This document shows positions 4,344-35,230 of a stretch of 44,758 nt of DNA, one piece after another. The translations under genes and the position numbers were made by a program. The notes beneath the pieces are model-generated. The model searched no databases, was not told the DNA's origin, and was given only the letters and a program-made list of their open reading frames with translations. How positions within the stretch are numbered: position 1 is the stretch's first letter; each line of letters begins with the position of its first letter. The stretch comes from a candidate division NC10 bacterium SPGG6 (lineage in GTDB: Bacteria; Methylomirabilota; Methylomirabilia; Methylomirabilales; CSP1-5): NCBI GenBank assembly GCA_001643535.1, contig LXTG01000068.1, positions 1 through 44,758 on the forward strand, in the 5' to 3' direction.

Positions 4344-4628
4344 ATGCGAGAATTTGAGCGGCGCGATAACCCGGGGCAACACACCGGTGCGAGCCCCTCG
4401 TCCCGCCGTCCCCTCGAGGTCGTCGTGGATGACCGCGGGGTCGAATCAGCGCTCCGCACCTTCAAGCGCCTCGTGTTGCGAGACGGGGTCCTCCGAGAGC
4501 TGAAGCGGAAGCAGAGCTATGAGAAACCCGGGGAGCGGAAGCGGCGAAAGGTACGCGAGGCGGCCCGCCGGCGGCGGCGGCAACTGACCCGCGCCGCCGC
4601 CCGCCGACAGCAGAATGATCGGCCGTAA
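4344..4628 (+). CDS. rpsU: 30S ribosomal protein S21
   Basis: LEVVVDDRGVESALRTFKRLVLRDGVLRELKRKQSYEKPGERKRRK matches the S21 core (..ESALRRFKR...EKPSERR..), with a basic tail. ATG 4344 has GGAGGG just upstream. GTG 4290 in the ORF track adds an unsupported extension. Confidence 0.85.
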   Translation: MREFERRDNPGQHTGASPSSRRPLEVVVDDRGVESALRTFKRLVLRDGVLRELKRKQSYEKPGERKRRKVREAARRRRRQLTRAAARRQQNDRP

Positions 4629-4667
4629 CCGCACGGGCCGTAGCAGCAGGGGAAAGGAGACGGCGGC

Positions 4668-4958
4668 ATGGGATCGAGAATCTACGTAGGCAATCTCCCC
4701 TTTAGCGTGGATGCGGACCAACTCCGCTCCCTCTTTGAGGAAGGGGGGCGCCAGGTCCAGGACGTCAAGATCGTCACCGATCGCATTACCGGCCGGCCCC
4801 GCGGCTTTGCCTTTGTGGACATGGACAGTTCCGAAGAGGCGGAGGCAGCCATCACCGCCCTGAACGGGCGCGACATGGGGGGGCGCACCCTCACGGTCAG
4901 CATGGCCCGGGAGCGGGAGCCGCGGCACGGCGGCGGTGATCGCCGGGATCGCTACTGA
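4668..4958 (+). CDS. RRM-type RNA-binding protein
   Basis: 96 aa with RNP-2 (IYVGNL) and RNP-1 (RGFAFVDM) motifs and a Gly/Arg-rich tail. Confidence 0.9.
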   Translation: MGSRIYVGNLPFSVDADQLRSLFEEGGRQVQDVKIVTDRITGRPRGFAFVDMDSSEEAEAAITALNGRDMGGRTLTVSMAREREPRHGGGDRRDRY

Positions 4959-5453: not shown

Positions 5454-5738
5454 CTACCTGGCCAGGATGGCGTCCTTCAAGGCCTTCGCAATCCGGATTC
5501 GGACTACCCGCTTGGCGGGAATCTTGATGGGCTCGCCCGTCTGAGGGTTCCGACCCATGCGCGCCTTCCGATTCACCAGCACCACCTTGCCAATCCCCGG
5601 CACGGTGAAGCCGTTCTTGGCTTCCTTGGCCGCCAGGGAGGCCAGTTCGTCCAGGATAGCCGCCATGGTGCTCTTGGTAACCTCGGCGCTGTCAGCGAGC
5701 CGGGCTACAAGCTGTGCCTTCGTTATCGCCTTTCCCAT
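5454..5738 (-). CDS. HU/IHF-family DNA-binding protein
   Basis: MGKAITKAQLVARLA..GFTVPGIGKVVLVNRKARMGRNPQTGEPIKIPAKRVVRIRIAKALKD, including the RNPQTGE beta-arm. AAGGAGG lies 5 nt upstream of ATG 5738; the ORF-track start at 5771 is less likely. Confidence 0.9.
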   Translation of the reverse strand: MGKAITKAQLVARLADSAEVTKSTMAAILDELASLAAKEAKNGFTVPGIGKVVLVNRKARMGRNPQTGEPIKIPAKRVVRIRIAKALKDAILAR

Positions 5739-6644: not shown

Positions 6645-7376
6645 TCAGGCGTGAGGATCCTCACTCGGCGCCGGGTCCGGTCCGAGAAGATAAAGAGTCC
6701 GAGGGAACTTCCCTCTCGGTCGTGCCGCAACCTGATTGAGGGCTGTGAAATACTCCACCTGGGAGATTCCGCCTCGCATTGTGCCGAGCGGGAAAATCCC
6801 GATCGTCTCGCAGCCGCGCTTGCCCAGCTCGGCGAGGGCATCCTCAAGACCGGCGAGGACAACCTCTCTGCGGCAGATCGGTTCATGGTCAAAGTCGTAC
6901 ACGATGACCCGGGCGATATATTTTACCCCCTGACACTCCCCATCTGTGATCACGACGGAGCCCAACGGGCGTTTCTCCACTCGGGCGGCACGCTCCAAAG
7001 CAACCCAGAGATCAAGGGGGGTCGGGTTCGGATCTAATTCCTCGATCGCCGCTTGCAGGAGAAGGTAGGTATCCTCAGGCAGGATCAACGCATCTGGTGC
7101 ACTCGGCAGCTCGCGCGACGGCGACAGGATGACCTCCGTGGCCCCCAGGTCCTCGATCCCGTCCCTCTCCACCGTGAACGCCTCCTCAGTCTTCACCGTT
7201 GACCGACGACCGTCCAAGATCAAAGGCCCGCTCTCCCCCTCGCAAGCCGGCGAGGGAAGCAGAGATCCTGAGGAAGGCGGAAACTGCTTTGCGTCCGGCC
7301 GGGGTCCCGCCGCCAGAGCGCAGCGCAGGTGGGGGTGGCCCTCCTGATGCATAGTAACTCGCTCGGCGCGGAACAC
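6645..7376 (-). CDS. hypothetical protein (weak macro-domain-like resemblance)
   Basis: 243-aa ORF. The C-terminal two thirds (PLGSVVITDGECQGVKYIARVIVYDFDHE..LAELGKRGCETIGIFPLGTMRGG) look like an alpha/beta domain. The N-terminal ~60 residues are low-complexity, so the true start may be internal. Confidence 0.4.
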   Translation of the reverse strand: MFRAERVTMHQEGHPHLRCALAAGPRPDAKQFPPSSGSLLPSPACEGESGPLILDGRRSTVKTEEAFTVERDGIEDLGATEVILSPSRELPSAPDALILPEDTYLLLQAAIEELDPNPTPLDLWVALERAARVEKRPLGSVVITDGECQGVKYIARVIVYDFDHEPICRREVVLAGLEDALAELGKRGCETIGIFPLGTMRGGISQVEYFTALNQVAARPRGKFPRTLYLLGPDPAPSEDPHA

Positions 7377-7486
7377 AGTGCCTCCGCCAGAGCAACCCGT
7401 AGAATTTTCCGCCGACGAAGGATGCCTTCCCGAGCCGGCTCAATTTATCTCAGACCACCCAAGTCTGACCGCTAATTTCTGTCCTT

Positions 7487-12727: not shown

Positions 12728-12730
12728 CAG

Positions 12731-12884
12731 TCGACTGTTCTTGGTTCACGGTTCACCGTTCACAGATGGTGGTTGGTGAGGTGAAAACCACCAGCCACCA
12801 GTCACTGGCCACCAGCCACTTTTTTCTTATCGGTCGTCGGACTTCGGCGAGCTCAGTCGAGTCGTCAACGGTCATCGGAGATCG
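12731..12884. repeat. spacer composed of 22 consecutive heptanucleotides (TTCACNG, NTGGTGN/NCCACCA, NTCGGNC, GTCANCG blocks)
   Basis: Read directly; see findings. It contains a 12-bp hairpin (12767-12778 pairs with 12789-12800) and a T6 run at 12820-12825. Confidence 0.9.
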
Positions 12885-12887
12885 AGC

Positions 12888-14795: not shown

Positions 14796-15185
14796 CTACT
14801 CCTCTTCCCCAGGCCAACCCTTGATCCCGTACAGGCCGGCTTTGAGCACCTTCAGGGCCAGCAGTCCGCACTTCAGTCGAATCGGGCTGAGCGGGATCCC
14901 CAGGGCCTCGAGCATCTCTTCCTTGCTGAAGGCCCTGACCCGCTCCAGGGGGGCTCCCTTGACCTTATCAGTCAGGATCGACGCTGCCGCCGTACTGATG
15001 GCACAACCCCGCCCATCGAAGCGGACGTCGACCACGCGGCCCTCGCCGAGCTTGAGATCAATCCGGATCCGGTCACCGCAGAAAGGGTTATCTTCCTCGT
15101 TGGTGATATCCGGGTCCTCCAGCGTCCCGAAGTTGCGCGGTCTCTTGTAATGATCCAGGATGAATTCGCGATGAAAATCGTCCAT
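14796..15185 (-). CDS. SufU/IscU-like Fe-S scaffold protein, second paralogue
   Basis: ILDHYKRPRNFG..NPFCGDRIRIDL..GRGCAISTAAASILT..IRLKCGLLALKVL carries the three Cys of the SufU family (TIGR01994-like). Confidence 0.85.
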   Translation of the reverse strand: MDDFHREFILDHYKRPRNFGTLEDPDITNEEDNPFCGDRIRIDLKLGEGRVVDVRFDGRGCAISTAAASILTDKVKGAPLERVRAFSKEEMLEALGIPLSPIRLKCGLLALKVLKAGLYGIKGWPGEEE

Positions 15186-15253: not shown

Positions 15254-15277
15254 CATATATGATATATGATATATGAT
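15254..15277. repeat. tandem heptanucleotide (ATATATG)x3 + ATA
   Basis: Read directly at 15254-15277 in the 416-nt spacer upstream of the second sufU paralogue. Confidence 0.9.
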
Positions 15278-15601
15278 AGAGGAAGAGGCTGGCACGGTCT
15301 ACTACTCGTACCACCAGCCTGTAACCCCCTCCCGGCTTTGCAGACTTTCCCCCCTTGCAAGAAAAAGACCGTGTATTCGTTGGAGTCTGCGCGGCTTTCC
15401 ACCCTTGCATCGATGTAGGCGTCAGGCTCGAGCGAACCGCGTGGAAGCAACCGGAAGAGCAGGCCTTCGAGCAGACGTCAAGGGTCACGCCGACCTATGA
15501 TTCGGTCATTTTCTCTGCTACCGTGGAACTTAGGAAAGGAATCGTCCCCAGGAAGTGTCACTGTTGGCGGGTCCCTTCGACGTAGGGGCGCCCCTCACGT
15601 C

Positions 15602-28596: not shown

Positions 28597-28627
28597 CTAC
28601 ACCCTTCTTGCACCAGCAGTCGGCTAT

Positions 28628-28718
28628 TCGGATTTCGAATTGCGAATTTCGAATATGGGATTGGGGACTAAACACTTCCGTAGAAAATCCGAAATCCGCA
28701 TTCCCAAATTCGAAATGT
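28628..28718. repeat. heptamer-built imperfect inverted repeat in the nuoD|nuoH spacer
   Basis: Arm 1 (28628-28669): tcggatt tcgaatt gcgaatt tcgaata tgggatt ggggact. Arm 2 (28684-28718): aaaatcc gaaatcc gcattcc caaattc gaaatgt. 28645-28666 can pair with 28696-28717 at 18 of 22 positions. Confidence 0.85.
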
Positions 28719-28746
28719 TTGCAAGCTGACCGCTGGCAGCTATGGA

Positions 28747-29901: not shown

Positions 29902-30408
29902 CTATGCCGTCGTCGGTCGGGGCACGCTTCCCGGCTTCCGATCCTCCCAGGGATAGGCAACAAACCGTTCATCCTGGTAATCCTTCCGGAGGGGATAGCC
30001 GATCCAGTCTTCGGGGAGGAGGATCCGCCGTAGGTCCGGATGGTTCTCAAACCGGATCCCGAACAGGTCAAAGGCCTCTCGCTCGTGCCAGTTCGCTGTC
30101 CCCCAGAGGGGGACCACCGAGCGGAGGACCGGCTCATCCTGGGGGACCCTCGCCCGGAGGATAATCTTCCCCGGCTGTTTGAGGGAGGAGATGGCATACA
30201 CCACTTCCATCTCTTTATCGGCAGTCCAGTCGACGCCGCTCAGGCAGTTCAGGTAATCGTACCCCAGCTCCTCCTTGATAAAGCGGCAGATCTCGAAATT
30301 TCGGTCTGCCTTGATGGTCACACAGGCCTCGCCACGCCGGACCTCTGCTGTTCGGATCTCCTCGCGGAACCGGGACTGAATCTGCTGAAGGATCTCTTCC
30401 GCCGTCAT
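29902..30408 (-). CDS. nuoC: NADH-quinone oxidoreductase subunit C
   Basis: 168 aa with ANWHEREAFDLFGIRFENHPDLRRILLPEDW. Confidence 0.9.
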   Translation of the reverse strand: MTAEEILQQIQSRFREEIRTAEVRRGEACVTIKADRNFEICRFIKEELGYDYLNCLSGVDWTADKEMEVVYAISSLKQPGKIILRARVPQDEPVLRSVVPLWGTANWHEREAFDLFGIRFENHPDLRRILLPEDWIGYPLRKDYQDERFVAYPWEDRKPGSVPRPTTA

Positions 30409-30417
30409 TGCATTAGC

Positions 30418-30508
30418 GTCCGATGTCCGAAGTTCGAAGTCCGATGTCGAACGTCACACAGTGGCCGGTCAATCCTGACGTCGGACCTCACACGTCGGAC
30501 GTCAGACT
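30418..30508. repeat. 13 consecutive heptanucleotides forming inverted GTCCGAN / TCGGACN arms in the nuoA|nuoC spacer
   Basis: gtccgat gtccgaa gttcgaa gtccgat gtcgaac gtcacac agtggcc ggtcaat cctgacg tcggacc tcacacg tcggacg tcagact. Confidence 0.85.
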
Positions 30509-30512
30509 TTCA

Positions 30513-30872
30513 CTAGACCCACTCGAGTGCCCCCTTGGCCCACGCGTAGGCGAGGCCGACCAGGAGGATCACGATGAAAATCATCATCTCAATGAAGGCA
30601 AACAAGCCGAGGGAGCGGTAGACAATGGCCCAGAGGAAGAGGAAGACCGTTTCCACCGCGAAGAGGATAAACATCAGGGTAAAGAGATAGTACCGGATGT
30701 GGATCCGGAGCCACGGGCCGCCGATGGGATCTTCACCGCACTCGTAGGTGGTGAGCTTTTCCGGCGTCGGATTCGCCGGGCGGATAATACGCGAAAGGAC
30801 ATCAATGTTGAGGACTACGAAGAGGAGGCCGACGATGAGGAAGAGCGCGACATATGCGTAATCGGCTGCCAT
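30513..30872 (-). CDS. nuoA: NADH-quinone oxidoreductase subunit A
   Basis: 119 aa with three TM helices, TTYECGEDP, and FILFAVETVFLFLWA. Confidence 0.9.
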   Translation of the reverse strand: MAADYAYVALFLIVGLLFVVLNIDVLSRIIRPANPTPEKLTTYECGEDPIGGPWLRIHIRYYLFTLMFILFAVETVFLFLWAIVYRSLGLFAFIEMMIFIVILLVGLAYAWAKGALEWV

Positions 30873-30996: not shown

Positions 30997-31347
30997 TCAC
31001 CTTGTGTTCAGAGTCCTGACATACGCCAGGACATCCTCCCGGTCTTTCTCATCCATGCTCCACTGAAAGCCCGGCATCTTCCCTTTCCCCTTATTGATGA
31101 CCTGAAAGAGCTCCTGATCACTCTTGTCTTGCACTCTTTTTGAGGTGAAGTCCGGGATCTCGACCTGGAGCATCTGCACCATTCGGGGGCTGCCCTTGCC
31201 GTCCTCGGCATGGCACTTCAGACAGCGGACGGCATACACCTCCTTCCCGTTCGCGAGATCCGCAGCTACCGTCGGGGCCGGGACCAGGATGATCGAGGCC
31301 GCCAGGAAAGATCCTACGACCCAACTCTTGGTATCGTGCCTCACCAT
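30997..31347 (-). CDS. monoheme class-I c-type cytochrome with an N-terminal signal/anchor
   Basis: MVRHDTKSWVVGSFLAASIILVPAPTVAA.., the haem motif CLKCH, and a distal GKMPGF. GGAGG lies upstream of ATG 31347. The ORF-track extension to 31746 overlaps the upstream gene and is low-complexity. Confidence 0.85.
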   Translation of the reverse strand: MVRHDTKSWVVGSFLAASIILVPAPTVAADLANGKEVYAVRCLKCHAEDGKGSPRMVQMLQVEIPDFTSKRVQDKSDQELFQVINKGKGKMPGFQWSMDEKDREDVLAYVRTLNTR

Positions 31348-31490
31348 GATGCCTCCTTCCCCACTGTGGCATTCCCCGCGACACCATGCCACCCGGCCAC
31401 CCGAGGTCATATCCTCCCCGCTCCCGCGCATGGTATCTCTGTCAATCCCGACGCTCCAACGGGATTCCCTGGTTACTCTCCTCCCCCCCT

Positions 31491-32666
31491 TTAGCTGTCG
31501 CCCCCCTCTTCCGGCATGGCCGCAGATTCCTCGACGTCCGCCAGGTAATGGCAGGTCGAGCAGAGATCGTGGGGCTCTGCCTCTCCATCGGCAAGGAACT
31601 GTACCTCGCACCGGCCACAGCGGCGGTATGCCTTCTCCAATAGGATCTGCTGATCTTTTGAGGCAACAACTTTCAATGAAAGCCCTTGCCGGTAGGTCAG
31701 GGCATTCGGAATGCAGGCATCCAGACAGAGAGCACAGTTGACGCACCGACTTGCATCCACGGTGAGGCGGAAGGCCTCCTCGCCCCCTCCCCGCTCGATT
31801 GCCCCGGTGGGACAGATCTGGACACAGGCCTCACAGGCATTACACTTCACCTCGTCGAGGAGAAGCTGCGCAAAGGGACCTTCGGGATCGTAGGGGACTT
31901 CCCCGTCCTCAACTTCGAACTTCTTGAGAAAGTGAGGAAGGAGTCGATTCCGGAGAGGAAGAGAAGTCCTCCTCGTGGACCCTCTGCCCTGAAACGCCTG
32001 GGAGAAGTCGTCGAGGAAAGAAGCCATGAGCTGCATCCCTTCGCTTCTCACCCAGGTGAAAAACGCCCGACGGTCAGGGCCTACCGTCTTCCATCTCTTG
32101 TGTTTCCCGCGAGTCCCCTCCCTCTCCTCTATGATCCTCTCGGAAGATCCAGGAAGGGCTTGACCCCAGGTGCGAATCCGACCGAGCATCCGCCGGTATC
32201 GAGGCATCGCCTCTGGGTACGGGCACTTCTCGCAAGGCCCTCGCGTAAGGTAGACCTCTTGGGCCCCGAGGGCCAAGGCACCCAGCAAAATGGTCTCGTC
32301 CAGACGCGCCAGGCAGGGCAGGATGAGATCGGCTGATGCGGCATTTACGCTCTGTTCGCAGGTGATGGACAGGGAAGGGCTCTCTCGCAAGCGAGAGGCT
32401 ACCTGGGAGAGAAGCTGCCCCGCTGCCGCCCCGTTGAGATCAAAGGCGGAGACGGGACAGACGGTGAGGCAGACCCCGCAGCCGGTGCAGTCATTCAGGA
32501 CGTGGACCCCCCCACTGAGATCGATGCTCTGGACCGGGCAACTCTTCACGCACAGGTGACAGTCCGAAAGTCCAGAATGCTCCCGCAGACAGCGGGGTGT
32601 CTCGACTGTGGCCTGCGCCCCCCCTACCCGATGAAGGAAGCGTTCGAAACGGTCTAAGGGCTCCAT
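31491..32666 (-). CDS. multi-[4Fe-4S] ferredoxin-domain protein of unknown function
   Basis: Four CX2CX2CX3CP-type motifs (CHLCVKSCP, CTGCGVCLTVCP, CNACEACVQICP, CVNCALCLDACIP) flank a ~200-aa non-ferredoxin insert. There is a C-terminal CGRCE...CSTCH pair. Start at MEPLDRF (32666), because the ORF-track start at 32738 lies inside the heptamer repeat. Confidence 0.7.
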   Translation of the reverse strand: MEPLDRFERFLHRVGGAQATVETPRCLREHSGLSDCHLCVKSCPVQSIDLSGGVHVLNDCTGCGVCLTVCPVSAFDLNGAAAGQLLSQVASRLRESPSLSITCEQSVNAASADLILPCLARLDETILLGALALGAQEVYLTRGPCEKCPYPEAMPRYRRMLGRIRTWGQALPGSSERIIEEREGTRGKHKRWKTVGPDRRAFFTWVRSEGMQLMASFLDDFSQAFQGRGSTRRTSLPLRNRLLPHFLKKFEVEDGEVPYDPEGPFAQLLLDEVKCNACEACVQICPTGAIERGGGEEAFRLTVDASRCVNCALCLDACIPNALTYRQGLSLKVVASKDQQILLEKAYRRCGRCEVQFLADGEAEPHDLCSTCHYLADVEESAAMPEEGGDS

Positions 32667-32688
32667 CTTCGGTGACCGACAAGAAAAA

Positions 32689-32793
32689 GGTGACTGGTGG
32701 TCAGTGGCTAGTGGCTGGTGGTTTTCACCAATCACCAATCACCAGCCACCAATAATCCATGAACCCTCAACTCTCAACCCTGAACGCTGAATT
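32689..32793. repeat. spacer composed of 15 consecutive heptanucleotides (NGTGGNT x5, NNCACCA x4, CTSAACN x4)
   Basis: ggtgact ggtggtc agtggct agtggct ggtggtt ttcacca atcacca atcacca gccacca ataatcc atgaacc ctcaact ctcaacc ctgaacg ctgaatt. It shares a 19-mer with 12780-12798. Confidence 0.9.
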
Positions 32794-32795
32794 AC

Positions 32796-34085
32796 TCACT
32801 CTGGACTGACGACTTGGAGGGCCTCCTGGGCCGCCTCAACGGTAATCGCCACATCCTGGCTGGTGTGGGCGGCGGAGAGGAAAGCCGCCTCGAACTGAGA
32901 TGGGGGAAGGCTGATCCCTCGATCCAACATGGCGCCAAAGAAAGTGGCGTAGCGTTTGCTTTCGATCCGCTCGATATCCCGCTCATCCTGCACCGGACCC
33001 TGCGTAAAGAACAGGGTCCACATGGAACCAACCCGGTTGAGACAACAGGAGAGATTCGCCCTCCGATATGCCTCCTCCATCCCCTCGGCTAACGCTCTCC
33101 CCCGCTCCTCCAGATCACGGTAGACCCCTTCATCCCTCAAGAGGTTCAGGGTCTCGATGCCTGCCGTCATGGCCAGCGGATTGCCGGCCAGAGTCCCGGC
33201 CTGATAGACCGGGCCCAGTGGAGCGACCTGTTCCATCATCGCCTGACGACCCCCATAGGCTCCAACCGGCAGGCCCCCTCCGATGATCTTCCCCAGACAT
33301 GTCAGGTCGGGGCGAACCCCGTAAAGCCCCTGCGCCCCTCCGTAGCTCACGCGAAAGCCGGTGATCACCTCGTCAAAGATCAACAGGGCCCCGTATTGAT
33401 GAGTCAGTTCCCTGAGTCCCTCAAGGAAACCGGGCCTGGGCGGCACCACGCCCATGTTGCCTGCCACCGGCTCGACAATCACACACGCCACTTCCCCCCC
33501 CACCGCCTCCATGACCTCACGGAGCTGGTCCAGATTGTTATAGCTGAGCGTGATGGTCTCCTTCACCACGGCCTGAGGAACGCCGGCGGAATTCGGGATG
33601 CCCAGGGTCAGGGCGCCTGAACCGGCCTTGACCAACAGGCTATCGACATGACCATGGTAGCAGCCTGCGAACTTGACGATCTTGTCCCGCTTGGTGTACG
33701 CCCGGGCCACCCGAAGGGCACTCATCACCGCCTCGGTCCCGGAGCTCACGAAGCGGACCATCTCCACCGAGGGGAGGGCCTCGGTCACCCCTCTCGCCAA
33801 GGTGACCTCCAGCTCCGTCGGTGCCCCATAACTCGTTCCACGCTCTACCGCCTTCTGTAATGCCCTCACAACCTGGGGGTGAGCGTGTCCCAGGATCAAC
33901 GGTCCCCAGGACCCCACGTAGTCGATGTAGACCTTTCCGTCCACATCAAAGATCCTGGCACCCTCTCCCCTTTCGATGAAGAAGGGGCACCCCCCCACGG
34001 CCCGAAAGGCCCGGACGGGGCTGTTCACGCCCCCCGGAAGGTATCGCTGCGCCTCTTGAAAAAGATTCGCCGACTTCCTTCTCAT
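32796..34085 (-). CDS. hemL: glutamate-1-semialdehyde 2,1-aminomutase
   Basis: [12 protein letters not shown], class-III aminotransferase body, and [16 protein letters not shown] (the PLP lysine). Start at MRRKSANLF (34085); the ORF-track start is 34103. Confidence 0.95.
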
Positions 34086-34249
34086 GGTCTCTCCCGCACC
34101 CATCGGCGCACCACTTTTTTATTAATTCCACCCGGCCTCGGTTCGGCGGACAGACCGATACCCAACTTCCACACCACCGTGATTGGAGGAATGGCACCCG
34201 GCAGATGTCTCAACGCGACGTCGGCGACCACGACGGGATGAAAAAGGAA

Positions 34250-35230
34250 TTACTCGGTCCGGCGAAGGAGCCGAGCGGCGTCTTTGGCGAAGTACGTGAG
34301 GATCAGGTCGGCCCCCGCCCGTTTGATGGCCGTGAGGATCTCCAACATGGCTCGCTCCTCCTCCAGCCATCCCAGTCTGGCGGCGGCCTTCACCATGGCG
34401 AATTCCCCACTCACATTGTAGGCGGCCACCGGCACGTCAAACTCGGTCCGGACCCGCCATAGGACGTCCAGGTATGCCAGGGCAGGCTTCACCATGACGA
34501 TATCGGCCCCCTCCTCGATGTCCATGGCGACCTCTCGTAAGGCCTCCACGACGTTTGCCGTATCCATCTGATAGCTCCGCCGATCCCCGAATTGAGGGGC
34601 CGACTCCGCCGCCACCCGGAAGGGTCCGTAGAAAGCCGAGGCGTATTTGGCCGCATACGACATGATCGCGACCTCCTCAAAACCGCTCGTGTCCAAGGCC
34701 TCGCGGATCGAGGCCACTCGGCCGTCCATCATGTCCGAGGGGGCCACGATGTCTGCCCCCGCCTCCGCCTGGGAGACCGCAGCCTTCGCCAGGAGTTCCA
34801 GGGTCGGATCGTTTTTGACAATCCCCTTCTCCACCACCCCGCAGTGGCCGTGACTCGTGTATTCGCAAAGACATGTGTCGGTGATGACGAGGAGGTCCGA
34901 GACCGAATCTTTAATGGCTTGCACGGCCTGTTGGATAATCCCATCCTTGGCGTACGCCTCGGATCCGTGGGCATCCTTATGCTCCGGGATGCCGAAGAGG
35001 AGAACCGCAGGGATGCCGAGGGTGGCAATCTCTTTGACTTCCCTGGTGAGCTGGTCCACAGAGAATTGGTAGTTGCCGGGCATAGGCGGAATTTCCTGTC
35101 GGATCCCGCGCCCGTGAACGACGAAGAGCGGCATAATGAGATTGTCCACCTGCAGGATCGTTTCCCGGACCATCCGACGGATCGTTTCCGACCGCCGGAG
35201 ACGTCGGGGGCGCCGCAATGGAAAATGCAT
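34250..35230 (-). CDS. hemB: porphobilinogen synthase (delta-aminolevulinate dehydratase), zinc-type
   Basis: [15 protein letters not shown], the Cys-rich metal site [14 protein letters not shown], and [10 protein letters not shown] (the Schiff-base lysine). Confidence 0.95.

What the first reader, a model, noticed from the sequence alone, without database searches (positions are those of the whole stretch)
32689..32793. A second register-perfect heptamer spacer (15 units), homologous to the 12.7-kb element and in the same orientation relative to transcription
The hemL-to-Fe-S-protein spacer parses as GGTGACT GGTGGTC AGTGGCT AGTGGCT GGTGGTT | TTCACCA ATCACCA ATCACCA GCCACCA | ataatcc atgaacc | CTCAACT CTCAACC CTGAACG CTGAATT. 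The first five units are the complement of the next four, which gives a long hairpin. The reverse complement of 32711-32729 (ggtgaaaaccaccagccac) is identical to 12780-12798. Similarity continues for about 40 more nt: tagccactgaccaccagtcacc-ttttt-cttgtcggtc versus cagtcactggccaccagccac-tttttt-cttatcggtc. In both loci the element lies between two co-directional genes. The order is also the same in the direction of transcription: heptamer block, hairpin, T-run, then CTT(A/G)TCGGTC. This suggests a dispersed, oriented RNA-level element (terminator, processing site or stabiliser) rather than random low complexity. The ORF-track start for the downstream gene (32738) falls inside it and is probably wrong.
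Basis: seen in the sequence. Interest (0 to 1): 0.65.

Follow-up and report, generated by a model that had tools for sequence, protein, structure and literature searches.

The report
Heptamer-built hairpin cassette between operon genes

Summary
Window 32689-32793 parses into 15 in-phase heptamers, and lag-7 identity is 0.66 against at most 0.44 in 10,000 shuffles. Its core matches 12780-12836 on the opposite strand (19/19 identical, then about 89% over 57 nt).

The window comes from a marine-sediment NC10/Methylomirabilales bacterium. Database scans found about 13 independent loci with the same module order: (GGTTCAC)n, (TGGTGRT)n, a purine-rich loop, (CACCAGY)n, an optional T-run, then (TCGGTCR)n.

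The interpretation as an oriented RNA element fails:
- Copies lie 7 sense to 5 antisense relative to flanking genes. One atp operon carries one copy each way.
- The T-run is missing in most copies.
- There is no covariation beyond shuffled controls.
- Metatranscriptome contigs run across both window copies.

The spacers turn over quickly:
- Arrays differ by 7- and 21-nt indels.
- A strain 99.9% identical in both flanks has 32681-32805 replaced by a different hairpin built from other heptamers.
- Orthologous spacers in other species carry other heptamer hairpins, or none.

Best reading: a REP/BIME-like and STRR-like intercistronic hairpin cassette. It probably acts as an orientation-independent RNA processing or stability hairpin, and as a leaky terminator where a U-run follows. 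This is a new variant of a known kind, of moderate interest.

The parts
32667..32795 (-). Whole hemL to Fe-S-protein intercistronic spacer (129 nt), made almost entirely of in-phase heptamers. This is the element under review.
   Evidence: Lag-7 identity 0.59 over the spacer. MFE -47.4 kcal/mol, z = -3.6 on the mRNA strand.
32759..32793 (-). A-type array (GGTTCAY-like units; on the mRNA strand: AATTCAG CGTTCAG GGTTGAG AGTTGAG GGTTCAT). It starts 3 nt after the hemL stop codon (32796-32798).
   Evidence: The same block type sits 5' of the hairpin in other copies.
32726..32753 (-). 5' arm of the hairpin on the mRNA strand ((TGGTGRT)n, B array).
   Evidence: (28-position ungapped stem: 19 Watson-Crick, 6 G.U, 3 A.C).
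32721..32725 (-). Loop AAAAC (GGUG-AAAAC-CACC). Loop variants in other copies are AGGAC, GAAGC and CAAAC.
32689..32720 (-). 3' arm of the hairpin ((CACCAGY)n, B' array).
32684..32688 (-). T5 run (U5 in the mRNA). It lies 4 nt after the end of the main stem register, or directly after an alternative GGUGA/UCACC register.
   Evidence: The terminator scan did not call it. The run is absent in the orthologue L016 and in most other copies.
32667..32683 (-). Remnant C unit (CTTGTCGGTCACCGAAG) leading to the ATG of the Fe-S protein gene at 32666. GTCGGTCA is the right-hand border of the strain-variable cassette.
32681..32805 (-). Strain-variable cassette, 125 nt in the window. In contig L090 it is replaced by an unrelated 164-nt heptamer hairpin, although both flanks are 99.8-99.9% identical. 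The same joint appears in an RNA-library contig with 150 nt between.
12728..12887 (+). Sister copy in the spacer between the 115-aa gene and the Zn-ADH gene. Parts: A array 12743-12763; shortened 5' arm 12765-12783; loop 12784-12788; 3' arm 12789-12819; T6 12820-12825; C units 12826-12839 and 12864-12880.
12840..12863 (+). 24-nt insert GACTTCGGCGAGCTCAGTCGAGTC inside the C array of the sister copy. It is present or absent between strains.
   Evidence: Many different flanks in sequencing runs.
28597..28746 (-). Another intercistronic heptamer hairpin of a different sequence family (TTCGAAT / AAATCCG arrays), in the nuoD to nuoH spacer.
   Evidence: lag-7 identity 0.48; z = -2.6 and -3.5.
30409..30512 (-). 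Another intercistronic heptamer hairpin (GTCCGAA-type arrays), in the nuoA to nuoC spacer.
   Evidence: lag-7 identity 0.52; z = -3.9.

Best explanation
The spacer is one copy of a lineage-specific mosaic repeat of NC10/Methylomirabilales bacteria.

Anatomy. The element is assembled from tandem heptanucleotide arrays whose units are all variants of GGTSAYY: GGTTCAC (A), GGTGATT (B) and GGTCATC (C). A G/T-rich B array and its imperfect inverted partner form a 25-31-bp hairpin with a purine-rich 5-nt loop. An A array lies on one side. A T-rich junction plus a C array lies on the other, and the last C unit supplies the downstream gene's Shine-Dalgarno-like GGAG or GAGG.

Evolution (shown). The cassettes sit in short spacers between co-transcribed genes, in either orientation. 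They change by 7-nt slippage. They are exchanged wholesale between sites or strains, and the one exchange whose joints could be read (the window versus L090) is bounded by C-like heptamers.

Function (inferred). As part of a polycistronic mRNA, the cassette forms a long imperfect double-stranded stem whichever strand is transcribed. The most likely role is a REP/BIME-like processing and stability determinant. It would act as an RNase III-type cleavage site and/or a 3'-exonuclease barrier that uncouples the levels of neighbouring cistrons. Only copies with a U-run directly downstream on the transcribed strand, as at 12.7 kb and less cleanly at 32.7 kb, would add leaky intrinsic termination.
For: Family and anatomy. 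The same module order is found in about 13 independent loci from Methylomirabilales MAGs and metagenomes.

Organism. L016 (NC10 CSP1-5) is syntenic at about 80% nucleotide identity. Homologues of the 115-aa neighbour are all named Methylomirabilales. The runs holding the window are marine-sediment metagenomes.

Placement inside operons, both orientations: atpA-[sense]-atpG-atpD-[antisense]-atpC, lysA-[antisense]-dapA, lpxI-[antisense]-gfo, argS-[sense], hemL-[sense].

Periodicity by spacer type. Four of the window's spacers have lag-7 periodicity, and all four lie between co-directional genes. None of the divergent or convergent spacers does.

Hairpin. 87.4% of cells pair over 31 positions, against 18-61% when the partner columns are slid. 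MFE z-scores are -2.5 to -4.8.

Structure kept while sequence is replaced.
- Strain L090, 99.8-99.9% identical in 1.8 kb and 2.9 kb of flank, carries a different hairpin of GGTTCAY/RTGAACC arrays (-70 kcal/mol) at the same joints.
- Orthologous 115aa-ADH spacers hold a B/B' hairpin (L072), a TGACCGN/TCGGTCR hairpin (L076, z = -4.8), other arrays (L074) or almost nothing (L078, 45 nt).

Slippage: a 7-nt indel (L063) and 21-nt indels (L015/L020 and L005/L010).

Read-through. RNA-library contigs span hemL to the Fe-S gene across the cassette, and run from the hairpin across T6 into the whole ADH gene at similar depth.
Against: - There is no RNA-end or processing data. The RNA evidence consists of low-depth Logan contigs that may contain DNA.
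- Covariation is not above shuffled controls, so selection for pairing is not shown independently of shared ancestry.
- In some orthologous pairs the hairpin is far better conserved than the neighbouring coding DNA (L015/L020: 68/69 against 75-82%). This points to a sequence-specific constraint or ongoing homogenisation that a structure-only role does not explain.
- The element strand folds 2-15 kcal/mol better than its complement in 16 of 18 copies (58 G.U against 24 A.C), even where that strand is not the mRNA strand. This is unexpected for a purely mRNA-level role.
- Orientation counts rest partly on a home-made gene caller. The clear cases were checked with Pfam.
- A neutral origin (slippage plus recombination, tolerated in spacers) is not excluded.
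Confidence: 0.55

Rival explanations
1. First reader's model. The element is an oriented RNA-level signal (intrinsic terminator, processing site or stabiliser) that works only in the polarity heptamer block, hairpin, U-run, CUURUCGGUC relative to transcription.
For: - Both window copies have this polarity between co-directional genes.
- At 12.7 kb the stem abuts U6, and in strains without the 16-nt deletion it is a full 31/31 hairpin followed directly by U6.
- The convergent-gene copy L005/L010 also has T5.
- The element strand folds better than its complement.
Against: - 5 of 12 independent loci are antisense to co-directional, Pfam-confirmed genes. One atp operon holds both orientations.
- A run of five or more T follows the 3' arm at only four of those twelve loci: three sense (both window copies and L005/L010) and one antisense (L027/L030).
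- The U-run at 32.7 kb is 4 nt from the main stem and was not called by the terminator scan.
- The copies sit inside essential operons, where efficient termination would be harmful.
- RNA contigs read through at both window loci.
- There is no covariation above controls.
Confidence: 0.1
2. Neutral or selfish repeat DNA. Heptamer arrays arise by replication slippage, inverted arrays arise by recombination, and the cassettes spread by gene conversion. They persist only because short spacers tolerate them, and they have no function.
For: - Rapid turnover: 7-, 16- and 21-nt indels, allele replacement between 99.9%-identical strains, and a nearly empty orthologous site (L078, 45 nt).
- No covariation above controls.
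- Mixed orientation.
- Heptamers are the commonest long simple repeats in bacteria and are attributed to polymerase slippage (Mrazek 2007, as summarised in PMC4679880).
Against: - Hairpin cores are more conserved than adjacent coding DNA in L015/L020 and L005/L010.
- The replacement alleles are again long hairpins rather than random sequence.
- In the window the periodic spacers occur only between co-directional genes.
Confidence: 0.25
3. Non-autonomous mobile element of the REPIN/MITE type. A strand-specific DNA hairpin is recognised and moved in trans by a transposase, for example a Y1/RAYT-like enzyme.
For: - Copies are dispersed and keep a fixed internal polarity and a conserved loop.
- The asymmetry of G.T against A.C follows the element, not the gene strand.
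- Non-orthologous copies are 90-94% alike. The copy at the site orthologous to 12.7 kb in another species (L072) resembles the window's 32.7-kb copy (88%) more than the 12.7-kb copy (75%).
- Cassette replacement has sharp joints.
- A 24-nt insert shows clean filled and empty sites.
Against: - The composite has no terminal inverted repeats and no target duplication.
- No GTAG or CGTC tag lies at the stem base (sequences; criterion from PMC3733652).
- No transposase gene was seen in the window or the loci examined.
- Adjacent copies in opposite orientation within 2.5 kb (L037) and 20 kb (the window, with uniform GC skew) argue against insertion biased to the lagging strand.
- Orthologous sites show gradual module turnover rather than simple presence or absence.
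Confidence: 0.15
4. Arrays of binding sites for a heptamer-specific nucleic-acid-binding protein that tunes translation or transcription of the adjacent gene, as proposed for TAACTGA repeats in Beggiatoaceae and heptamer repeats in Nostoc.
For: - The C array runs into the ribosome-binding site of the downstream gene in sense copies (TCGGAG, TCGAGG).
- High sequence conservation of the hairpin and its loop.
- The literature gives precedents for a suspected regulatory role (PMC4679880; bioRxiv 10.1101/2022.06.06.494920).
- An RRM-type RNA-binding protein is encoded in the window at 4668-4958.
Against: - With mixed orientation, a different array faces the start codon in different copies.
- The arrays can be replaced by other heptamer families at the same site.
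- No binding protein has been identified.
Confidence: 0.1

Closest known systems
STRR (short tandemly repeated repetitive) heptanucleotide sequences of heterocystous cyanobacteria, and more generally the long heptameric simple repeats of bacteria
   Same: Both have 7-nt tandem units in several unit families, are dispersed in intergenic DNA, and vary by 7-nt steps between strains. Function is unknown in both. From my memory of Mazel et al. 1990, the STRR units (CCCCAGT, TTGGTCA, CAACAGT) are within one or two bases of the NC10 units (CACCAGT, TCGGTCA). This was not verified here. The general abundance of heptamer repeats is summarised in PMC4679880.
   Different: The phylum differs (NC10). Here three arrays are locked in a fixed order around an inverted pair that forms a 25-31-bp hairpin, and that composite is itself the dispersed unit. 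Units are imperfect rather than freshly slipped.
REP / BIME (and REPIN) extragenic palindromes of enterobacteria and pseudomonads
   Same: Both are imperfect palindromes in transcribed spacers inside or at the end of operons. Both occur in both orientations, combine with other motifs into mosaics, and are polymorphic between strains. The proposed roles are mRNA stabilisation and attenuation (PMC3733652 and PMC3116915).
   Different: Stems here are about twice as long and built from heptamers. There is no GTAG or CGTC tag. No RAYT is known. Copy density appears lower: beyond the matches that brought the loci in, the nhmmer search of all held loci and the window found further copies only in L037 and L041.
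Intrinsic (Rho-independent) terminators
   Same: At both window loci a G+C-rich stem is followed by U5-U6.
   Different: The stem is 25-31 bp with periodic mismatches. The U-run is missing in most family members. Copies sit between genes of essential operons and on the non-transcribed strand.
Other dispersed heptamer-array families: TAACTGA repeats (Beggiatoaceae, cyanobacteria, Bacteroidetes) and the GGACCGG x4 and MTYCTGA x5 families of Geobacter metallireducens
   Same: All are short tandem heptamer sets repeated at tens to hundreds of intergenic sites, often near start codons, with a suspected regulatory role (PMC4679880; PMC2700814).
   Different: Those are simple direct arrays. Hairpin-forming inverted arrays with a conserved loop and flanking arrays are not described there.
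Small dispersed repeats (SDR, 21-27 nt) of Nostoc (Elhai et al. 2008). This applies to the 24-nt insert at 12840-12863 only.
   Same: The insert is a tiny 24-nt dispersed sequence embedded in tandem heptamers, with filled and empty sites between close strains and no coding capacity. The statement that SDRs often lie within tandem heptamers is from my memory of the abstract. The paper is not held and is only cited in PMC3116915.
   Different: The sequence is unrelated and the phylum differs. No significant secondary structure was found.
BOX elements of Streptococcus pneumoniae (boxA-boxBn-boxC). This comparison is from general knowledge and was not tested.
   Same: Both have a modular A-Bn-C architecture with a variable number of internal units, an intergenic location and the potential for stable folds.
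   Different: BOX modules are 45-59 nt, not heptamers, and the sequences are unrelated.

Membership tests
Intrinsic terminator | Stable G+C-rich stem-loop immediately (0-2 nt) followed by a U-tract on the transcribed strand | tested here: inconclusive
   At 12.7 kb the stem abuts U6. At 32.7 kb U5 lies 4 nt after the main register, and the scan called no terminator. The stem is much longer than typical.
Intrinsic terminator | The feature is conserved across family members and oriented with transcription at the ends of transcription units | tested here: not met
   The T-run is absent in L003, L011, L015/20, L016, L037, L043/45, L047 and L050. Five loci are antisense, and copies lie inside atp, lysA-dapA and lpx operons.
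Intrinsic terminator | Transcript 3' ends map to the U-tract | not testable with these tools
   Only Logan contigs of metatranscriptomes are available. They run across the T-run, which argues against efficient termination but does not map ends.
REP / BIME / REPIN | Short (20-40 nt) imperfect extragenic palindrome, in both orientations, in transcribed spacers | tested here: inconclusive
   The element is extragenic, palindromic and found in both orientations. However, the palindrome is 60-70 nt.
REP / BIME / REPIN | Conserved GTAG or CGTC tetranucleotide at one end of the stem (Di Nocera 2013, PMC3733652) | tested here: not met
   No conserved GTAG or CGTC lies at the stem base in the aligned copies. 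CGTC occurs only inside the variable TCGGTCG array, at variable distance.
REP / BIME / REPIN | Association with a RAYT (Y1 transposase) gene in the genome | not testable with these tools
   No complete genome of the source is held. No transposase was seen among the window and locus genes scanned.
STRR-type heptanucleotide repeats | Tandem repeats with a 7-nt unit | tested here: met
STRR-type heptanucleotide repeats | Many dispersed copies confined to non-coding DNA | tested here: met
   Ten of the 11 period-7 TRF arrays lie fully outside the called genes. The ATATATG array at 15255-15278 falls inside a gene of one of the two gene-call versions. The family occupies about 13 intergenic loci.
STRR-type heptanucleotide repeats | Occurrence in heterocystous cyanobacteria (the family as originally defined) | tested here: not met
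   The host is NC10/Methylomirabilales. The cyanobacterial hits lie in what looks like a conserved coding region, because their flanks are conserved between genera. So this is the same kind of element but not the same family.
MITE | Terminal inverted repeats and target-site duplication | tested here: not met
   The ends are an A array and a C array, which are not inverted copies of each other. No duplication is seen at the cassette joints.
MITE | Precise filled versus empty sites | tested here: inconclusive
   A sharp allele replacement was found (L090), and L078 is a near-empty orthologous site. No simple insertion or excision of the whole element was seen.
Rfam RNA families | Match to a curated covariance model | tested here: not met
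   No match at the gathering threshold in the whole window.

The most novel reading that the evidence does not exclude
The hairpin cassettes are the cis-elements of an undescribed post-transcriptional system in NC10 bacteria. On this reading they are sequence-specific, strand-asymmetric stem-loops with a conserved purine loop, and their stems are better conserved than neighbouring genes. A dedicated RNA- or ssDNA-binding or cleaving factor would recognise them and set subunit stoichiometry in core operons (atp, nuo, heme, lysine). The heptamer build would make stem length tunable in 7-nt steps, and the C-type heptamers would serve as recombination borders for exchanging cassettes between sites and strains.
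Probability: 0.12. Interest if true: 0.7.

Novelty: new variant of a known kind. Interest (0 to 1): 0.45.

Why it matters
Dispersed heptanucleotide repeats have been known for decades in cyanobacteria, Geobacter and Beggiatoaceae, but their function remains unknown. My literature searches found no description of such repeats in NC10.

The NC10 cassettes offer an unusually clean test case. They sit between genes of well-understood operons. They occur in both orientations, even within one atp operon. Natural alleles with different hairpins exist in strains that are otherwise 99.9% identical, and a near-empty orthologous site is available. These features make the question of whether the hairpin matters, and at which level, directly testable.

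There are also practical consequences. The cassettes break metagenome assemblies at their cores, and they mislead ORF callers, as with the wrong start at 32738.

Tried and rejected
- Rfam gave no match, either at the gathering threshold over the whole window or with E-values up to 1 around 7.1-7.6 kb.
- The window has no tRNA or tmRNA genes.
- The promoter and terminator consensus scans gave nothing useful at either locus.
- Covariation was tested with RNAalifold and the count of structure pairs. There were 5 pairs (8 cells) with changes on both sides, which is not above the shuffled controls. The structure therefore cannot be claimed from compensatory change.
- nhmmer with a family profile found few further full copies in the held loci (a second copy in each of L037 and L041). 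No reliable copy number per genome could be derived.
- The exact-protein look-up for my 435-aa HemL call failed because public calls start later, at 429 aa.
- The Elhai 2008 SDR paper is not held, so the comparison with SDR rests on memory.
- The idea that orientation follows replication direction was rejected. Two copies in opposite orientation lie 20 kb apart in a window with uniformly negative GC skew, and two lie 2.5 kb apart in L037.
- I noticed that GGUGAU/AUCACC resembles the extended Shine-Dalgarno and anti-Shine-Dalgarno sequences. No test was available, so I did not use this.
- The 19 non-NC10 hits of the 19-mer scan are unrelated, mostly coding, matches.
Full report
1. OBSERVATION. 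The sequence is as described. Positions 32689-32793 read as 15 consecutive heptamers in one register. Lag-7 identity is 0.66 (lag 14: 0.54; lag 21: 0.52) and other lags are 0.15-0.33. None of 10,000 shuffles exceeded 0.44. TRF finds three period-7 arrays at this locus. Units 1-5 are the imperfect complement of units 6-9.

On the transcribed (minus) strand the spacer folds at -46.5 to -47.4 kcal/mol, z = -2.6 to -3.6. The 19-mer GGTGAAAACCACCAGCCAC is found at 12780-12798(+) and 32711-32729(-) and nowhere else, even with 3 mismatches allowed; 0.01 matches are expected. TTTTTCTTRTCGGTC also occurs only at these two places. The aligned core is 51/57 identical.

2. GENES. The flanking genes on the minus strand are hemB (34250-35230), hemL (32796-34103), an Fe-S protein, a cytochrome c, then nuoA, nuoC, nuoD and nuoH. 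The Fe-S gene starts at the ATG at 32666, not at 32738. The N-terminus is kept in a relative, and public gene calls give the same 391-aa product. The 12.7-kb copy lies on the plus strand between an NC10-specific 115-aa gene, which follows archease and rtcB, and a Zn-dependent dehydrogenase gene.

3. SOURCE ORGANISM. A scan of GTDB species genomes with the 19-mer returned 28 loci. Nine are from NC10/Methylomirabilales MAGs and share the whole architecture. The rest are unrelated, mostly coding, matches. L016 (NC10 bacterium CSP1-5) is syntenic with window 29.6-39.2 kb at about 80% identity. Homologues of the 115-aa protein are all annotated Methylomirabilales. Near-identical DNA occurs in many marine-sediment metagenomes.

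4. THE FAMILY. A metagenome scan added further copies, and an nhmmer profile found a second copy in L037. All copies share one order and polarity:
- (GGTTCAC)n;
- (TGGTGRT)n;
- the loop region GGTG-AAAAC-CACC, with loop variants AGGAC, GAAGC and CAAAC;
- (CACCAGY)n;
- a T-rich junction;
- (TCGGTCR)n.

The three unit types are close variants of GGTSAYY. Over 16 copies, 87.4% of cells pair across a 31-position stem, against 18-61% when partner columns are slid. Changes on both sides are no more frequent than in shuffles. The pairing is therefore real but carried by sequence conservation, not demonstrated by compensation.

The element strand folds better than its complement in 16 of 18 copies, with 58 G.U against 24 A.C in ungapped stems. 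This asymmetry follows the element, not the gene strand.

5. ORIENTATION, THE KEY TEST. I called genes with a codon log-odds caller and checked the decisive ones with Pfam.

Sense copies:
- window 12.7 kb;
- window 32.7 kb, with its orthologue L016;
- L015/L020;
- L049 (argS upstream);
- L037a (atpA upstream, atpG downstream);
- L003 (upstream gene only);
- L005/L010 (sense to the upstream Memo-like gene, convergent with a FeoA-domain gene).

Antisense copies between co-directional genes:
- L037b (atpD upstream, atpC downstream);
- L047 (lysA upstream, dapA downstream);
- L027/L030 (lpxI upstream, gfo downstream);
- L043/L045.

L050 is antisense to its only visible neighbour. L011 and L025 are ambiguous. 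That gives 7 sense to 5 antisense. One atp operon carries one copy in each orientation 2.5 kb apart.

A run of at least five T is present only in window 12.7 kb, window 32.7 kb, L005/L010 and the antisense L027/L030. It is absent or degenerate elsewhere. These results contradict a directional RNA signal. They also make efficient termination implausible, because the copies sit inside essential operons.

6. TRANSCRIPTION DATA. Only assembled contigs of metatranscriptome libraries exist. One contig joins the hemL 3' end (32806-32946) to the Fe-S 5' end (32632-32680) across a variant spacer. Another runs from the hairpin across T6 and through the whole ADH gene at a depth similar to the upstream rtcB contig. 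This is weak evidence, since depth is low and DNA carry-over is possible. It is nevertheless consistent with read-through.

7. TURNOVER. Several observations show that these spacers change quickly.
- Strains with an identical 115-aa protein differ in the 12.7-kb spacer by three changes. One is the loss of one GGTTCAC unit (7 nt). The second is a 16-nt deletion in the 5' arm; the window carries this deletion, while other strains have a complete 31/31 stem abutting T6. The third is the presence or absence of a 24-nt insert inside the C array.
- Orthologous pairs differ by exact 21-nt indels in the C array.
- Across more distant Methylomirabilales the same spacer varies widely. L072 has a B/B' hairpin that is closer to the window's 32.7-kb copy (88%) than to its positional orthologue (75%). 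L076 has a hairpin of TGACCGN/TCGGTCR arrays (z = -4.8). L074 has other heptamers. L080 and L081 have decayed versions. L078 has only 45 nt.
- Contig L090 is the most telling case. It is 99.8-99.9% identical to the window over 1.8 kb and 2.9 kb of flank and encodes the identical Fe-S protein. Yet it has 32681-32805 replaced by an unrelated 164-nt cassette whose hairpin is made of GGTTCAY/RTGAACC arrays (-70 kcal/mol). Eight of the ten places listed carry the window allele, and in a ninth (L087) the same stretch differs only by six N at its start.
- The same joint (32680/32806) appears in the RNA-library contig with 150 nt between the two sides, which is 164 minus 14.
- The cassette is bounded by GTCGTCAG and GTCGGTCA, which are both C-like units.

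In contrast, hairpin cores can be more conserved than the flanking coding DNA. In L015/L020 they are 68/69 identical against 75-82%, and in L005/L010 they are 97% against 75-88%.

8. THE WIDER PATTERN IN THE WINDOW. Four spacers show strong lag-7 periodicity: 12728-12887, 28597-28746 (nuoD/nuoH), 30409-30512 (nuoA/nuoC) and 32667-32795. All four lie between co-directional genes, and none of the divergent or convergent spacers is periodic. The two nuo spacers fold into long hairpins built from other heptamers, with z = -2.6 to -3.9. Heptamer-built intercistronic hairpins are therefore a class in this genome, and the 12.7-kb and 32.7-kb copies belong to one sequence family within that class.

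9. MECHANISM.

Shown:
- the element is a dispersed, modular, heptamer-built hairpin cassette;
- it is confined to short spacers, mostly inside operons;
- it occurs in either orientation;
- it evolves by unit slippage and cassette exchange.

Inferred: in a polycistronic mRNA a 25-31-bp imperfect duplex forms in either orientation. The duplex length, the orientation independence, the placement between cistrons of multi-subunit complexes, and the replacement of one hairpin by another all fit a REP/BIME-like processing or stability element. It would act as an RNase III-type site and/or an exonuclease barrier. Leaky termination would be added only where a U-run follows, clearly at 12.7 kb and marginally at 32.7 kb.

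Three alternatives remain open and are scored separately: a neutral origin, a trans-mobilised element and a protein-binding array. Two observations are not explained by my preferred model. One is the strand asymmetry that follows the element. The other is the very high conservation of some cores.

10. COMPARISON AND NOVELTY. The closest known kinds are as follows.
- Cyanobacterial STRR heptamers and other dispersed heptamer arrays (TAACTGA repeats, PMC4679880; Geobacter GGACCGG x4, PMC2700814).
- REP/BIME/REPIN palindromes (PMC3733652, PMC3116915).

The element fails the REP tag test and the MITE tests. It is not a consistent intrinsic terminator, and it matches no Rfam family. I found no description of such repeats in NC10. 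I therefore rate it a new variant of a known kind, of moderate interest.

Noticed in passing
window 12840-12863 (also L016 859-882, L043 6080-6103, L049 13092-13115, L050 6136-6159): A 24-nt sequence GACTTCGGCGAGCTCAGTCGAGYC is inserted between CG and GTC of a TCGGTC-type heptamer. Two independent filled/empty pairs exist between close strains: the window against L063, and L043 against L045. In sequencing runs the approximately 40-nt stretch around it has several-fold higher depth and many different flanks. It looks like a tiny mobile or dispersed element, reminiscent of cyanobacterial SDRs. It has no significant fold.
   Followed up: partly
window 7215-7440 (and L005 ~345-597): A dispersed sequence of about 230 nt has inverted ends (AGCCGGCGAGGGAAGC ... 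GCCTTCCCGAGCCGGCT) and is flanked by TCGGTC-type heptamers. In L005 it forms part of an insertion of about 255-270 nt relative to the orthologue L010 (the rest is heptamer arrays), right next to a hairpin cassette. There is no Rfam match, and its fold is no better than shuffles (z = +0.6). It is possibly a MITE.
   Followed up: partly
window 28597-28746 and 30409-30512: The nuoD/nuoH and nuoA/nuoC spacers are also filled with in-phase heptamers (TTCGAAT/AAATCCG and GTCCGAA types) that form long hairpins. This shows the phenomenon is a class, not a single family.
   Followed up: partly
window 12765-12783 versus L062, L063 and L069: The window's 12.7-kb copy carries a 16-nt deletion (TTGGTGATCAGTGATT) in the 5' arm. 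Other strains have a complete 31/31 stem directly followed by T6. The deletion is not a multiple of 7.
   Followed up: yes
L016 ~1315-1640 versus window 31004-32626: The CSP1-5 relative lacks the Fe-S protein and cytochrome c genes. It keeps the hairpin and the first 13 or so codons (MEPLDYLERFLYR) of the Fe-S gene, which indicates a 1.6-kb deletion there.
   Followed up: partly
window 4344-4958: A gene for ribosomal protein S21 is followed by a 96-aa single-RRM RNA-binding protein gene. From memory, this pairing is typical of cyanobacteria, which are also rich in heptamer repeats. The protein is a candidate binder of G/U-rich arrays, but this is pure speculation.
   Followed up: no
window 29902-30872: nuoA is followed directly by nuoC across a 104-nt hairpin spacer, with no nuoB gene between them.
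   Followed up: no
L041 2455-2519 and 5489-5559; L032, L034/L044, L042, L051, L060: Metagenome contigs of other, unidentified bacteria carry related (CCACCAG/CCAGTCA)n heptamer arrays and hairpins. In L041 one lies between ftsI and murE and another at 5489-5559, in opposite orientations. Heptamer-built hairpins of similar unit sequence therefore appear to extend beyond this NC10 clade.
   Followed up: no
window 32704-32744 in runs X6, X7 and X26: Assemblies break at the hairpin core. Several other contigs enter it from different flanks, all of the form C array, T-rich junction, 3' arm (for example CAGTCACTTTTTTCTCGCCGGTCGTCGGTC). These are further copies in the same communities.
   Followed up: partly
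window 15255-15278: A perfect (ATATATG) x3.4 array lies at or just past the start of the NifU-like gene (14796-15185). The two versions of my gene caller disagree on whether it is coding. It is unrelated in sequence to the other arrays.
   Followed up: no
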